From: Giardia intestinalis
Lineage: Eukaryota
Direction: 5' to 3' (one strand)
DNA length: 64,000 bases
Assembly: GCA_000002435.2 (NCBI GenBank)
Contig: CM018789.1
This document shows, one piece after another, positions 57,565-60,500 of the stretch; within the stretch, counting starts at the first letter, position 1; each line of letters starts with the position of its first letter. The position numbers were made by a program.

Positions 57565-60500
57565 CCCCGGGGCCAGAGCACGGCGGGCCAGTACGAGAGG
57601 AACGCCCGCCGCGGGCCGCCAGCCCCGCGGTTGCCCGGCCGGGCAGCGCCGCGCCGCCGCGCCCGGGGGCCCTGCGCTGACCGCCTCTAAGCGCGCACCC
57701 CGCCTCGCGCCCCGCCCGGCCGCGCGCCCCAGCCCCGTGCCCCGTCGCCGAGCGGCCCCCGCCCGGGGAGACCACCCGGCGCGGCGCTCCTGTACGGCGC
57801 AGAGCCCTGCGATCGCCTGAGGGACGCGCCTGCAGAGCGCGGGGCGGGGCGCGCGGCCCACTTGCTCTGGGGGGGTGCGGGGCAGACAGACAGGCAGAGC
57901 GCGGAAAGAGAAGATTGAGGGAGTGCAGGGTGCCCCAAGGGGTGGCCAGGGGGCAGTGCACGCCCACCACCGGGTCTGCCTTGCACAGAGGAGCACCCGT
58001 GTGCGCAGGGGGGCGGCGCAGGACCGCAGGGGGCCCGGGGGAGGCGGCCCGGGGGATCCAGACAGAGAGGCCAGCAGGGAGGCCCAGCGCCTCCAGCAGG
58101 CCACGCACGACCGGGAGACACGCCCACGTGCGGGGACGGGCGCTGGGGAGGCCCGGTGCAGGAGACCGGGGGACCGCGGGGAGAGCGCGGAAGGACCCCC
58201 GGACGGCCCAGAGCAGCCGATCCCCCGGGCCAGTAAACACTCCGGTCTCTCCTGCGGCCTCCTGCGCCCCCGTGGCCCCGCTGCAGCCAGGCGCACGCAC
58301 AGCACCCGGGGCTGCCCCAGTCGGTCCAGGGCCGGTCGGGGGCCCCTCCTCGGACCGCGCCCTTCCGGGGGGCCGCCCCCCACGCAGTGCCCTCCCGCTG
58401 CCAGCAATCATATAGGTTAGAGACGGACCGTATATAGCCACGGCTGCTGAGATCCCCGCGAGAAGCCGTTTCGGGCGGTCTCCCCGGAGAGGGCCCCCAG
58501 AGCGCCCGGATGCACAGTCAGCCTCCAATTCGATCGTTTTGCAGTCAAGGGCCTCCCCGGGGCACGGTGGACGGAGAACGAGGGGCGCGGATCTCCCGAC
58601 CGGCAGAGGAGCCCGGGACACGTGGTCCGCACAGGAGGGTTTGCCGTGATATGCAGTCCTGCAGGGTCCGCCCGGGCTCCCCGGCGCTCCCCGCGGACCG
58701 GCCCCCCGGCCCCCCGGACGCCCCCAAGGGATTTCAAAAAATGTGGTGCAGGGGGACTCCAGGGGGTGTGTGGGGGCGGCTTCTGTCACGCACTATATAG
58801 GACAAGGTGCTTTATCTCGCGAGGGCCGGTTTTTTGGAGGGGGGCAGAGGGCCCCAAGGGAATCCAAAAAAGTGTGGTGCAGGCGGACCCGGGCCGGGCT
58901 GTGGGGGGCGGCCTCCGCCCGGCACTATAGGGGGGACCCCCGACACGGCATGGGCACGGAGGGGGCGGCCCCCGTGCCAGGCGGCGGCCCCCGCGCAGGG
59001 AGGCGCCCGGCCCGCGGCGCCCGCGCCCGGCCATCCGGTCGATCCTGCCGGAGCGCGACGCTCTCCCCAAGGACGAAGCCATGCATGCCCGCTCACCCGG
59101 GACGCGGCGGACGGCTCAGGACAACGGTTGCACCCCCCGCGGCGGTCCCTGCTAGCCGGACACCGCTGGCAACCCGGCGCCAAGACGTGCGCGCAAGGGC
59201 GGGCGCCCGCGGGCGAGCAGCGTGACGCAGCGACGGCCCGCCCGGGCTTCCGGGGCATCACCCGGTCGGCGCGGTCGCGGCGCGCCGAGGGCCCGACGCC
59301 TGGCGGAGAATCAGGGTTCGACTCCGGAGAGCGGGCCTGCGAGACGGCCCGCACATCCAAGGACGGCAGCAGGCGCGGAACTTGCCCAATGCGCGGCGCG
59401 CGAGGCAGCGACGGGGAGCGCGCGAGCGAGGCGGGCCCACAGCCCCCGCCGCGGAGCCGAGGGCAAGGTCTGGTGCCAGCAGCCGCGGTAATTCCAGCTC
59501 GGCGAGCGTCGCGCGGCGCTGCTGCAGTTGAAACGCCCGTAGTTGGCCCCCCGCCGCCACGAGGAAACGGGAGCGCTCCAGGCAGGCCCGTTGGACCCGC
59601 CGCGTGGGACCGCGCAGCGGGCGCGGCGCGCCGCGGCAGCCCCGAGGAGAGCGGGCGGGGGCACCGGTACCGGCCGGGGACGGGTGAAACAGGATGATCC
59701 CGCCGAGACCGCCGGCCGCGCAGGCGCCTGCCAAGACCGCCTCTGTCAATCAAGGGCGAAGGCCGGGGGCTAGAAGGCGATCAGACACCACCGTATTCCC
59801 GGCCGTAAACGGTGCCGCCCCGCGGCCGGCGCGCGCGTCCCGCCGGCCGCCCAGGGAAACCGGGAGGCTCCGGGCTCTGGGGGGAGTATGGCCGCAAGGC
59901 TGAAACTTGAAGGCATTGACGGAGGGGTACCACCAGACGTGGAGTCTGCGGCTCAATCTGACTCAACGCGCGCACCTCACCAGGCCCGGACGCGCGGAGG
60001 ACCGACAGCCGGGCGCGCTTTCGCGATCGCGCGGGCGGTGGTGCATGGCCGCTCCCAGCCCGTGGCGCGAGCCGTCTGCTCCATTGCGACAACGAGCGAG
60101 ACCCCGGCCGCGGGCGCCGCGGGACGGCCCGCGCGAGCGGGAGGACGGCGGGGCGATAGCAGGTCTGTGATGCCCTCAGACGCCCTGGGCCGCACGCGCG
60201 CTACACTGGCGGGGCCAGCCGGCGCCCGCGAGGACGCGCGGAGCCCCCGCCGTGGCCGGGACCGCGGGCTGGAACGCCCCCGCGCACCAGGAATGTCTTG
60301 TAGGCGCCCGCCCCCACCGCGCGCCGGACGCGTCCCTGCCCCTTGTACACACCGCCCGTCGCTCCTACCGACTGGGCGCGGCGGCGAGCGCCCCGGACGC
60401 GCGAAGGGCCGCGAGCCCCCGCGCCTGGAGGAAGGAGAAGTCGTAACAAGGTATCCGTAGGTGAACCTGCGGATGGATCCCTCGCGCGCCCCGCGCGTCG

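What the first reader, a model, noticed from the sequence alone, without database searches (positions are those of the whole stretch)
58700..59031. Duplicated 80-bp spacer element ending in TATA(TA)GG about 100 nt upstream of the SSU: candidate Pol I promoter plus spacer promoter
Within the otherwise extremely GC-rich intergenic spacer there are two diverged direct copies, 130 bp apart, of an element CCCCAAGGGA(T/A)T(T/C)CAAAAAA(T/G)TGTGGTGCAGG...CACTATA(TA)GG, at about 58722-58802 and about 58852-58932. The downstream copy ends about 100 nt before the SSU 5' end at 59032. A-runs and a TATA(TA)GGG-like initiator are the shape of Pol I core promoters in many eukaryotes, and duplicated spacer promoters are common. 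This would imply an unusually short 5' external transcribed spacer. A third TATATAG-containing stretch lies at about 58408-58440 (tataggttagagacggaccgtatatagcc).
Basis: inference. Interest (0 to 1): 0.5.

Follow-up and report, generated by a model that had tools for sequence, protein, structure and literature searches.

The report
Giardia rRNA gene promoter, duplicated
The two 80-base repeats just upstream of the Giardia small-subunit rRNA gene are real and conserved, and public cDNA ends place the start of the pre-rRNA right after the downstream copy, so this is very probably the so far unidentified Giardia rRNA gene promoter with an upstream duplicate.

Summary
Two direct copies lie at 58722-58802 and 58852-58935, 131-132 nt apart and about 75-78% identical (local alignment score 76 against 29±3 in shuffles). 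Each has an A-run box (CCCCAAGGGA.T.CAAAAAA.GTGGTGCAGG) and ends in CACTATA(TA)GG.

Three independent lines support a promoter reading.
1. All 16 related Giardia rDNA loci I recovered keep both copies at fixed distances from the SSU. In the two most divergent lineages the spacer is unalignable until exactly 58722, then 78-86% identical.
2. cDNA-derived public contigs from four runs carry a sequencing adapter fused to window 58938, 58938, 58939 and 58941. That is 8-12 nt after the TATA|GGGGGG of copy B. One such contig runs unbroken to an oligoadenylated 3' end at 63405.
3. The variable core of the two copies co-evolves within lineages.

Copy B is therefore most likely the Pol I gene promoter/initiator, with a 5' ETS of only about 95-103 nt. 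Copy A and an invariant T6 block (58830-58835) form a conserved upstream module, either a spacer promoter or an upstream promoter element; no transcript from copy A was found. The third TATA stretch (58410-58439) is not conserved. The accessible literature states that the Giardia rDNA promoter is unidentified. This is a new member of a known kind.

The parts
58722..58757 (+). A-box of copy A (CCCCAAGGGATTTCAAAAAATGTGGTGCAGGGGGAC; A-run 58736-58741). This is the 5' boundary of the conserved part of the spacer.
   Evidence: 29 of 36 columns are invariant in 17 sequences. Identity of L008 and L001 to the window jumps at 58722 (coordinates printed are 2 too low, corrected).
58758..58780 (+). Variable core of copy A.
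   Evidence: 9 of 23 columns are invariant. Within L008 and L001 it is more like the core of copy B than like its ortholog in the window.
58781..58803 (+). TATA end of copy A (CTTCTGTCACGCACTATATAGGA; TATATA 58794-58799).
   Evidence: 20 of 23 columns are invariant in 17 sequences. (C/G)ACTATA lies at -242 from A59033 in all 17 sequences, -241 in L008 and L001.
58808..58837 (+). Conserved block between the copies. It ends in GGGCCGGTTTTTTGG, with the T6 run at 58830-58835. It is a candidate promoter-proximal terminator or upstream promoter element.
   Evidence: 25 of 30 columns are invariant. T6 lies at -203 (or -202) in all 17 sequences. No function was tested. The terminator-like hairpin scan found nothing.
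58852..58889 (+). A-box of copy B (CCCCAAGGGAATCCAAAAAAGTGTGGTGCAGGCGGACC; A-run 58866-58871). It is the candidate upstream half of the core promoter, about -78 to -41 from the TATA|G junction.
   Evidence: 31 of 38 columns are invariant. CAAAAAA lies at -168 (or -167) in all 17 sequences.
58890..58920 (+). Variable core of copy B.
   Evidence: 16 of 31 columns are invariant. It co-varies with the core of copy A within lineages.
58921..58941 (+). Initiator region of copy B: GGCACTATAGGGGGGACCCCC. TATA is 58926-58929, the G-run 58930-58935, then A58936. The inferred transcription start lies between about 58929 and 58938.
   Evidence: A cDNA adapter is fused at 58938 (L019, L020), 58939 (L012) and 58941 (L033). 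ACTATA...GGGG...CCCCCGAC is kept in all lineages.
58930..59031 (+). Inferred 5' external transcribed spacer (about 95-103 nt).
   Evidence: It is contained in the cDNA contigs L012, L019, L020 and L033, at 100% identity to the window. 62 of 83 columns of 58949-59031 are invariant. No covariation supports a particular fold.
59032..60483 (+). SSU rRNA gene, the first gene of the transcription unit driven by the element.
   Evidence: Rfam RF01960, 797 bits.
57840..57840 (+). 3' end of the upstream transcription unit (equivalent to 63405 in unit 2), 125 nt after the LSU. Non-templated A10-12 is added here. It marks the upstream limit of the non-conserved spacer.
   Evidence: L012, L013 and L015 end at 63405 followed by A10-12 and adapter, where the genome reads GGGGCGGGG. 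The L008 spacer diverges right after this point.
58410..58439 (+). It is probably not part of the system.
   Evidence: It is partly kept in L007 and lies in the stretch that is unalignable in L008. It has no A-box partner.

Best explanation
The 310 nt from 58722 to the SSU hold the rRNA gene promoter region and a very short 5' external transcribed spacer of Giardia.

Copy B (58852-58935) is the gene promoter.
- It has an A-run box about 60 nt upstream.
- It has a TATA|GGGGGG initiator at which RNA polymerase I (inferred) starts the pre-rRNA, somewhere between about 58929 and 58938.
- The transcript runs through SSU, 5.8S and LSU and ends 125 nt after the LSU (63405), where it can be oligoadenylated. 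The full precursor is about 4.47 kb.

Copy A (58722-58802) is an old tandem duplicate of this promoter, one repeat period (131-132 nt) upstream.
- Together with the invariant T6-containing block between the copies it forms a conserved upstream module.
- It acts either as a spacer promoter, whose short transcripts stop at the T-run, or as an upstream promoter element bound by the same factor as the core.

What is shown:
- the repeat itself;
- its strict conservation of sequence and position;
- the sharp conservation boundary at 58722;
- the cDNA 5' ends at 58938-58941;
- the oligoadenylated cDNA 3' ends at 63405.

What is inferred:
- that the 5' ends reflect initiation and not processing;
- that the polymerase is Pol I;
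- the role of copy A and of the T-run.
For: 1. Position and strand. The element is the last non-G+C-rich feature before the SSU, on the rRNA strand.

2. Repeat significance: z about 16.

3. Phylogenetic footprint.
- L008 is 45% identical to the window over 58233-58721 and 86% over 58722-59031.
- L001 is 22% and 78% over the same two stretches.
- In L008 the unalignable stretch runs from just after the RNA 3' end (57840) to the first base of copy A.

4. Fixed geometry in 17 of 17 sequences: (C/G)ACTATA at -242 and -110, CAAAAAA at -300 and -168, T6 at -203.

5. cDNA ends.
- The read-2 adapter is fused to the sense strand at 58938 (SRR3568102, SRR3568103), 58939 (SRR10063827) and 58941 (SRR24056658).
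- Two of these junctions were first seen as ORFs whose N-terminus MCSSDL is translated adapter.
- L012 is one contig from 58939 to 63405 with an adapter at both ends and a non-templated A-run.

6. The variable cores of A and B are more alike within L008 (0.88) and L001 (0.74) than orthologs are to the window (0.79/0.71 and 0.62/0.53). This is expected if both copies are read by one co-evolving factor, or are homogenised as a functional repeat.

7. No sign of a structured RNA or known RNA family.
- Rfam finds nothing in the spacer at E<=1.
- Fold z-scores lie between -0.4 and +1.0.

8. TATATAGGGG is the plant Pol I initiation motif, and duplicated genic plus spacer promoters carrying it are described (PMC6589552).

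9. The Giardia rDNA promoter is stated to be unidentified (PMC9705513).
Against: - The cDNA junctions lie at C residues 8-12 nt downstream of the TATA|G junction, not at it. They could mark a processing site, a 5' exonuclease stop, or a reverse-transcriptase stop next to the G6 run.
- I could not verify the library type or metadata of the runs. The contigs are assemblies, so a weaker upstream path may have been pruned.
- No transcript 5' end was found downstream of copy A, but the look-up route could not have found short RNAs.
- All related loci belong to the G. duodenalis complex. No other Giardia species was obtained, so conservation is over a modest evolutionary distance.
- The 5' ETS shows no covariation.
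- A 5' ETS of about 100 nt would be unusually short for a eukaryote that keeps U3-dependent processing factors.
Confidence: 0.62

Rival explanations
1. The primary transcript starts at copy A (about 58800), or at both copies. The ends at 58938-58941 are then a rapid primary processing site or a reverse-transcription stop. The 5' ETS would be about 232 nt, and copy B would be an internal duplicate inside the transcribed spacer.
For: - Conservation begins at copy A, only about 78 nt upstream of its own TATA, as expected if copy A were the true core promoter.
- CACGCACTATATAGG of copy A is the most invariant block, 20 of 23 columns.
- The stretch after it (58808-58837) is also conserved, as a transcribed leader might be.
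- The junctions fall on C residues next to a G6 run, which is compatible with cleavage or an RT stop.
Against: - In four runs the adapter-joined path, not a genomic upstream path, was assembled at 58938-41. Most molecules covering this point therefore end there.
- An invariant T6 run lies 30 nt after copy A's TATA.
- An RNA-level processing signal would not obviously need an A-box at the same -58 spacing as in copy A.
Confidence: 0.17
2. The A/T patches are generic Giardia AT-rich initiators. In this organism such patches drive promiscuous, bidirectional RNA polymerase II transcription. The spacer elements would make sterile sense or antisense transcripts, and the rRNA promoter would be something else.
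For: - Giardia promoters are short AT-rich Inr and TATA-like patches. Cryptic AT-rich patches initiate throughout the genome, in both directions (PMC1885649).
- The region has three A6/T6 runs and two TATA patches in a G+C-rich background.
Against: - The two patches of each copy are about 58 nt apart, not the roughly 30 nt of Giardia Pol II promoters.
- The only ATG after an A-run (58741) is ACG in L001 and L008, and no ORF is conserved.
- Flanking non-AT sequence (CCCCAAGGG, GTGGTGCAGG, CTTCTGTCACGCAC) is as conserved as the AT patches. A composition-only signal does not explain this.
- The RNA that begins after copy B is the rRNA precursor itself.
Confidence: 0.07
3. The conserved module is not a promoter but another spacer function, such as a replication origin or fork barrier, a Pol I terminator for read-through from the upstream unit, or a chromatin boundary.
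For: - The invariant T6 block and the A-runs could be protein-binding or DNA-unwinding sites.
- In other eukaryotes such functions do sit in the spacer near the promoter (general knowledge).
Against: - The mapped RNA 3' end of the upstream unit is at 57840, 880 nt before copy A.
- The RNA 5' ends coincide with the end of copy B.
- This reading can coexist with a promoter role but does not replace it.
Confidence: 0.08
4. The duplication is neutral, a recent tandem slip of about 131 nt with no function of its own.
For: - Tandem duplications are common in rDNA spacers.
- L001 has a third copy of the TATA end at -373.
Against: - Both copies are present, with copy-specific differences (TTTC versus ATCC, TATATAGGAC versus TATAGGGGGG), in every lineage. 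These include lineages whose remaining spacer is unalignable.
- The duplication is therefore old and both copies are constrained.
Confidence: 0.03

Closest known systems
Plant RNA polymerase I promoters with the TATATA(A/G)GGGG initiator and duplicated genic plus spacer promoters (for example Cucurbita Pg/Ps, PMC6589552; the Arabidopsis minimal promoter, from my own knowledge)
   Same: - A TATA(TA)GGGG motif lies at the inferred start.
- A diverged direct duplicate of the promoter lies upstream in the same spacer and the same orientation.
- The promoter stands out in an otherwise fast-evolving spacer.
   Different: - The Giardia repeat unit is only about 131 nt, with the two copies directly adjacent. 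Plant duplicates are hundreds of nt long and separated by subrepeat arrays.
- The 5' ETS is about 100 nt, against roughly 1-2 kb in plants.
- Common descent of the motif is untested. The similarity is about 10 nt and could be convergent.
Vertebrate and yeast bipartite Pol I promoters (core element plus upstream control element; in human the two are sequence-related), with a promoter-proximal terminator (mouse T0, Xenopus T3, yeast Reb1 site). From my own knowledge.
   Same: - Two related sequence blocks lie about 130 nt apart upstream of the start.
- The spacing is strictly kept.
- A conserved element sits between or upstream of them.
- The blocks co-evolve within lineages, as expected for species-specific Pol I factors.
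   Different: - Orthologs of the Pol I-specific TAFs were not found in Giardia (PMC9705513).
- The candidate 'terminator' here is a bare T6 run about 95 nt upstream of the start, not a known protein site at -170 to -215.
- None of this was tested functionally.
Giardia RNA polymerase II core promoters (AT-rich Inr at the start, a TATA-like patch about 30 nt upstream; PMC1885649)
   Same: - A/T-rich patches in a G+C-rich context serve as the recognition signal.
- Initiation probably occurs at or just after the proximal patch.
- The same divergent TBP probably binds (inference).
   Different: - The patch spacing is about 58 nt.
- The conserved non-AT flanks are long.
- The product is the rRNA precursor, with no ORF.
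- The element is duplicated.

Membership tests
Eukaryotic rRNA gene (RNA polymerase I) promoter | Lies in the intergenic spacer, upstream of and on the same strand as the SSU-5.8S-LSU unit. | tested here: met
   Rfam coordinates. The element is at 58722-58935 and the SSU starts at 59032.
Eukaryotic rRNA gene (RNA polymerase I) promoter | The 5' end of the primary pre-rRNA maps at the element. | tested here: inconclusive
   cDNA adapter junctions lie at 58938, 58938, 58939 and 58941 in four runs, 8-12 nt after TATA|G of copy B. The contig L012 is continuous to the LSU 3' end. I cannot distinguish a primary (triphosphate) end from a processed end.
Eukaryotic rRNA gene (RNA polymerase I) promoter | Conserved among related lineages while the rest of the spacer diverges. 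| tested here: met
   L008 is 45% identical to the window upstream of 58722 and 86% downstream; L001 is 22% and 78%. Geometry is fixed in 17 of 17 sequences.
Eukaryotic rRNA gene (RNA polymerase I) promoter | Directs accurate initiation in a reporter or in vitro assay, and is occupied by Pol I and its initiation factors. | not testable with these tools
   Needs experiments. The literature says the promoter is unidentified (PMC9705513).
Spacer promoter (upstream duplicate of the gene promoter) | Sequence-related to the gene promoter, upstream of it, in the same orientation. | tested here: met
   Copy A and copy B are 73-78% identical over about 80 nt, at a spacing of 131-132 nt.
Spacer promoter (upstream duplicate of the gene promoter) | Initiates its own transcripts, which end before the gene promoter. 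| not tested
   No contig with a 5' end near 58800-58812 was recovered, but the ORF-based look-up could not detect short RNAs. The invariant T6 at 58830-58835 is a candidate stop.
Plant-type TATATA(A/G)GGGG Pol I initiator | The motif TATATA(A/G)GGGG at the transcription initiation site. | tested here: inconclusive
   Copy B reads CACTATAGGGGGG, and copy A reads CACTATATAGGAC with only GG after it. The motif is quoted in PMC6589552. The match is about 10 nt and homology cannot be established.
Giardia RNA polymerase II core promoter | Two AT-rich patches about 30 bp apart, a start in the proximal patch, a very short 5' UTR and an ORF. | tested here: not met
   The patches are about 58 nt apart. 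The ATG at 58741 is not conserved and there is no conserved ORF. The definition comes from PMC1885649.
Known structured RNA gene (snoRNA, Pol III RNA and others) | A match to an Rfam family, or a fold more stable than shuffles, or covariation. | tested here: not met
   There are no Rfam matches at E<=1 in 57700-59060. Fold z-scores lie between -0.4 and +1.0. The 5' ETS alignment has 0 compensatory pairs.

The most novel reading that the evidence does not exclude
Giardia, which lacks recognisable Pol I-specific TAFs and has a highly divergent TBP, would use a miniature but complete Pol I control region inside 210 bp: spacer promoter, T-run stop, then gene promoter. Its initiator, TATA|GGGG, would be the same as in plants. 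That would suggest this initiator type goes back to the last eukaryotic common ancestor. The 5' ETS, about 100 nt, would be among the shortest known, with a 4.47-kb primary transcript that is oligoadenylated at a defined 3' end.
Probability: 0.3. Interest if true: 0.65.

Novelty: new member of a known kind. Interest (0 to 1): 0.52.

Why it matters
The accessible literature states that the Giardia rDNA promoter has not been identified (PMC9705513, 2022) and that several canonical Pol I factors are missing. A precise, conserved 210-bp candidate, with a mapped RNA 5' end, turns that gap into a direct experiment by reporter assay, in vitro transcription or ChIP.

It also gives a handle for several further questions:
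- high-level, cap-independent expression in Giardia;
- how a divergent TBP recognises a Pol I promoter;
- how an SSU processome works on a 5' ETS of about 100 nt.

The element is also a lineage-informative marker, because its variable cores differ between assemblage-level lineages.

Tried and rejected
Searches for related sequence that failed or were blocked:
- A metagenome scan with the Giardia SSU 5' 21-mer returned four contigs (L003-L006). L006 matched the rDNA only over that short word and nothing else aligned, so none is Giardia. The viral-contig scan found nothing.
- P0007, a distant hit to an antisense-SSU ORF, led to L022. This is an unrelated eukaryote whose SSU starts AATCTGGTTGATCC, and it was useless for comparison.
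- Exact look-ups of window ORFs 58812-59753(-) and 58807-59697(+) are not on record. The likely reason is that the window carries private one-base indels.
- No Giardia species outside the G. duodenalis complex could be reached.

Analyses that gave no signal:
- Consensus fold of the 5' ETS: no compensatory pairs.
- Single-sequence folds of copy A, copy B, the inter-copy RNA and the ETS are no better than shuffles.
- Rfam at E<=1 finds nothing in the spacer.
- The bacterial-type promoter and terminator scan finds nothing.

Literature that could not be read or found:
- Boothroyd 1987, Healey 1990, Lagunas-Rangel 2021 (Acta Trop) and Torres-Machorro 2010 are not held.
- No paper mentions the four run accessions I searched (SRR10063827, SRR10063830, SRR3568102, SRR3568103), and I did not search SRR24056658, so the library types are unverified.

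Readings rejected:
- A short ORF from the ATG at 58741 (19 codons) is not conserved.
- The CTCGCGAG palindrome at 58816-58823 is not kept: it reads CTCGTGAG, CTCATGAG, CTCCGGAG or CTCGCGGG in other lineages.

Correction: window coordinates printed by my scripts are 2 too low. This was corrected from then on, and the report uses corrected values.
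Full report
**Context**

The window ends in the inner edge of a Giardia rDNA array. Rfam finds three rRNA features, all on the + strand:
- a 3' part of an LSU gene at 56663-57714;
- an SSU gene at 59032-60483;
- a full LSU at 60742-63280.

The truncated first unit aligns with the second over 56627-58445 = 62192-63997, at 98.7% identity with 21 one-base gaps. 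The window therefore stops before the second unit's copy of the finding. The spacer is 57715-59031 (1317 nt, 74% G+C).

**The observation**

The repeat finder and MAFFT recover two direct copies.
- Copy A is 58722-58802: CCCCAAGGGATTTCAAAAAATGTGGTGCAGG ... CACTATATAGG.
- Copy B is 58852-58935: CCCCAAGGGAATCCAAAAAAGTGTGGTGCAGG ... CACTATAGGGGGG.
- They are 131-132 nt apart and 73-78% identical.

The repeat is far beyond chance. The best non-overlapping direct local alignment in the spacer scores 76, against 29.1±2.9 (maximum 38) in 100 dinucleotide-preserving shuffles. The A-box pattern is unique in the 64-kb window. GCACTATAKRGG occurs without mismatch only at these two places.

**Related sequences**

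No nucleotide search of eukaryotic genomes was available. I therefore used spurious ORFs that gene callers place on G+C-rich rDNA.
- Protein searches with such ORFs, and with a six-frame translation of 58690-58962, were followed by look-ups of the encoding contigs.
- This gave 16 Giardia rDNA loci that cover the region.
- They range from near-identical (L010, 99.8%), through a common lineage about 92-97% identical in the spacer (L007, L009, L021, L023-L032), to two divergent lineages.
- L008 is a complete 5456-nt unit.
- L001 has the SSU 5' signature GGAATCCGACG in place of GGAGCGCGACG. From memory this is the assemblage B signature; I did not verify it.

**Conservation**

All 17 sequences have the same geometry relative to A59033:
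- (C/G)ACTATA at -242 and -110;
- CAAAAAA at -300 and -168;
- T6 at -203, give or take one base.

The window's own -298 reflects A6 where all other loci have A7. This is probably a homopolymer error of the assembly.

The footprint is sharp.
- L008 is 45% identical to the window over 58233-58721. That is no better than a forced alignment of G+C-rich sequence. It is 86% identical over 58722-59031.
- L001 is 22% and 78% identical over the same two stretches.
- In L008 the unalignable stretch begins right after 57840 and ends at the first base of copy A.

Within the conserved 310 nt, the fraction of columns invariant in all 17 sequences is:

| Block | Invariant columns |
|---|---|
| A-box A | 0.81 |
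| TATA end of A | 0.87 |
| Inter-copy block with GGGCCGGTTTTTTGG (58808-58837) | 0.83 |
| A-box B | 0.82 |
| TATA/initiator of B | 0.71 |
| Rest of the leader | 0.75 |
| Variable core of A | 0.39 |
| Variable core of B | 0.52 |

Copy-specific differences (TTTC versus ATCC; TATATAGGAC versus TATAGGGGGG) are kept in every lineage. The duplication is therefore old and both copies are constrained.

The variable cores tell a second story. Copy A and copy B are more alike within L008 (0.88) and within L001 (0.74) than either is to its ortholog in the window (0.79/0.71 and 0.62/0.53). That is concerted evolution, or co-evolution with a common binding factor.

L001 also carries a third CGCACTATATAGGGGG, 132 nt upstream of copy A's TATA, at the end of its contig.

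**Transcript ends**

Some of the recovered Logan contigs are clearly assembled from cDNA, because they still carry Illumina adapters and a non-templated A-run.

3' ends:
- L012, L013 and L015 (SRR10063827, SRR10063830, SRR10063831) all end at window 63405, followed by A10-12 and AGATCGGAAGAGCG.
- The genome at that point reads GCAGAGCGC|GGGGCGGGG.
- An RNA 3' end therefore lies 125 nt after the LSU (57840 in unit 1), and it is oligoadenylated.

5' ends:
- L012 has ...GTGCTCTTCCGATCT fused directly to window 58939.
- The 90% protein cluster of the ORF that covers this region contains two members whose N-terminus MCSSDL is translated adapter.
- Their contigs show the adapter fused at 58938 (L019 from SRR3568102; L020 from SRR3568103) and at 58941 (L033 from SRR24056658).

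Four runs from three accession series thus give ragged 5' ends at 58938-58941. These lie 8-12 nt after the TATA|G junction of copy B (TATA 58926-58929, G-run 58930-58935, A58936, C-run 58937-58941).

An adapter junction survives assembly only if many fragments share it, so it marks a physical end of an abundant RNA. L012 is one unbroken contig from 58939 to 63405 with adapters at both ends. It is a 4.47-kb molecule that contains the leader, SSU, 5.8S, LSU and a 125-nt trailer.

The orientation of the adapters fits a dUTP-type stranded library. Such libraries commonly lose several nucleotides at true RNA 5' ends (general knowledge; the library type is unverified). A start at A58929 to A58936 is therefore compatible.

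**Interpretation**

The simplest reading has four parts.
- Copy B is the rRNA gene promoter, with its initiator at TATA|GGGGGG.
- The 5' ETS is only about 95-103 nt.
- The non-transcribed spacer is about 57841-58721.
- The conserved 58722-58851 (copy A plus the T6 block) is an upstream control module.

Two mechanisms for that module fit equally well.
- Copy A may be a spacer promoter whose transcripts stop at the T-run, about 30 nt downstream of its TATA. This would be the arrangement of spacer promoter, proximal terminator and gene promoter seen in vertebrates, in miniature.
- Copy A may instead be an upstream promoter element that binds the same factor as the core, as in the sequence-related UCE and core of human rDNA.

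I found no transcript starting at copy A. My route to public data depended on ORFs of at least about 190 codons, so it could not have seen short RNAs.

The polymerase is inferred to be Pol I, because the product is the rRNA precursor.

**Rivals**

- *Start at copy A, with 58938-41 a processing or reverse-transcription stop.* This is the main rival. It is favoured by the fact that conservation begins only 78 nt before copy A's TATA, and by the junctions lying on C residues next to a G6 run. It is disfavoured because the adapter path, not an upstream genomic path, was assembled in four runs, and because of the T6 run 30 nt into the supposed leader.
- *Generic Giardia AT-rich Pol II initiators (PMC1885649).* These do not fit the 58-nt patch spacing, the long conserved non-AT flanks, or the lack of any conserved ORF (the ATG at 58741 is ACG in L001 and L008).
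- *A structured small RNA.* This is not supported: there is no Rfam match at E<=1, the folds are no better than shuffles, and there is no covariation.
- *A neutral duplication.* This is excluded by the conservation.

**Comparison with what is known**

The closest described systems are plant Pol I promoters. Their initiation motif is TATATAGGGG, and they often occur as a genic plus a spacer copy (PMC6589552). Also close are the bipartite core/UCE promoters of vertebrates and yeast, with their proximal terminators (own knowledge). The Giardia module differs in scale: a 131-nt period, everything within 210 bp, and a leader of about 100 nt. It also operates in an organism in which Pol I-specific TAFs were not found.

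[quoted passage not shown] A 2026 review adds nothing on this. Older primary papers could not be read, so an early mapping of the start cannot be fully excluded.

**Verdict**

- It remains open for the 'spacer promoter' role of the upstream copy.
- It is not supported for the third TATA stretch.

This is a new member of a known kind, of moderate interest, mainly because it makes an acknowledged gap directly testable.

Noticed in passing
window 63405 (= 57840 in unit 1); L012, L013, L015: cDNA contigs from three runs end 125 nt after the LSU 3' end with a non-templated A10-12 before the adapter. This is a defined, oligoadenylated 3' end of the rRNA precursor or LSU trailer. The spacer of the divergent lineage L008 becomes unalignable right after this point.
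   Followed up: partly
window 53230-56627: This is the inner edge of the rDNA array. A 1114-aa ORF with a protein kinase domain and many ankyrin repeats (53230-56574, +) ends 53 nt before a truncated LSU gene that starts at 56627, corresponding to about position 1891 of the Rfam LSU model. The 93/198-nt tandem repeats at 56026-56446 are the ankyrin repeats.
   Followed up: partly
window 58736-58741, 58776 and 56627-58445 versus 62192-63997: The window has A6 and GGGGG-CGG in copy A, where all 16 other loci have A7 and GGGGGCCGG. The two rDNA units of the window differ by 21 one-base gaps. These are probably homopolymer errors of a long-read assembly. They also explain why exact protein look-ups of spacer ORFs failed.
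   Followed up: partly
P0003, P0004, P0005 (ENA metagenome contigs, not fetched): These ORFs carry the Giardia variant-specific surface protein domain (PF03302). P0003, the only one whose sequence I read, continues in frame into about 36 residues nearly identical to the antisense-SSU ORF (RIGQVPRLLPSLDVRAVSQARSPESNPDSPPGVGPS); P0004 and P0005 match 11-12% of that ORF at 95-100% identity. This suggests VSP gene/rDNA junctions in other isolates, or chimeric assemblies.
   Followed up: no
L001 (reverse strand), -373 from the SSU: The lineage with SSU signature GGAATCCGACG has a third CGCACTATATAGGGGG, one repeat period (132 nt) upstream of copy A's TATA, at the very end of the contig. The repeat number of the promoter module may therefore vary between lineages.
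   Followed up: partly
L008, spacer between the equivalents of window 57850 and 58715: This lineage has a completely different, shorter non-transcribed spacer, rich in GGATAG/GGCAG-like short repeats. The rRNA genes, trailer, promoter module and leader are 86-99% identical to the window.
   Followed up: partly
L011 (SRR10662857): This contig is a whole rDNA unit except for 58650-59001. The assembly breaks on both sides of the duplicated module, which may reflect heterogeneity of this region among units of that isolate.
   Followed up: no
window 58816-58823: An 8-nt palindrome, CTCGCGAG, sits between copy A's TATA and the T-run. It reads CTCCGGAG (also a palindrome) in L008, but CTCGTGAG, CTCATGAG or CTCGCGGG in other lineages. 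It is therefore not consistently kept.
   Followed up: yes
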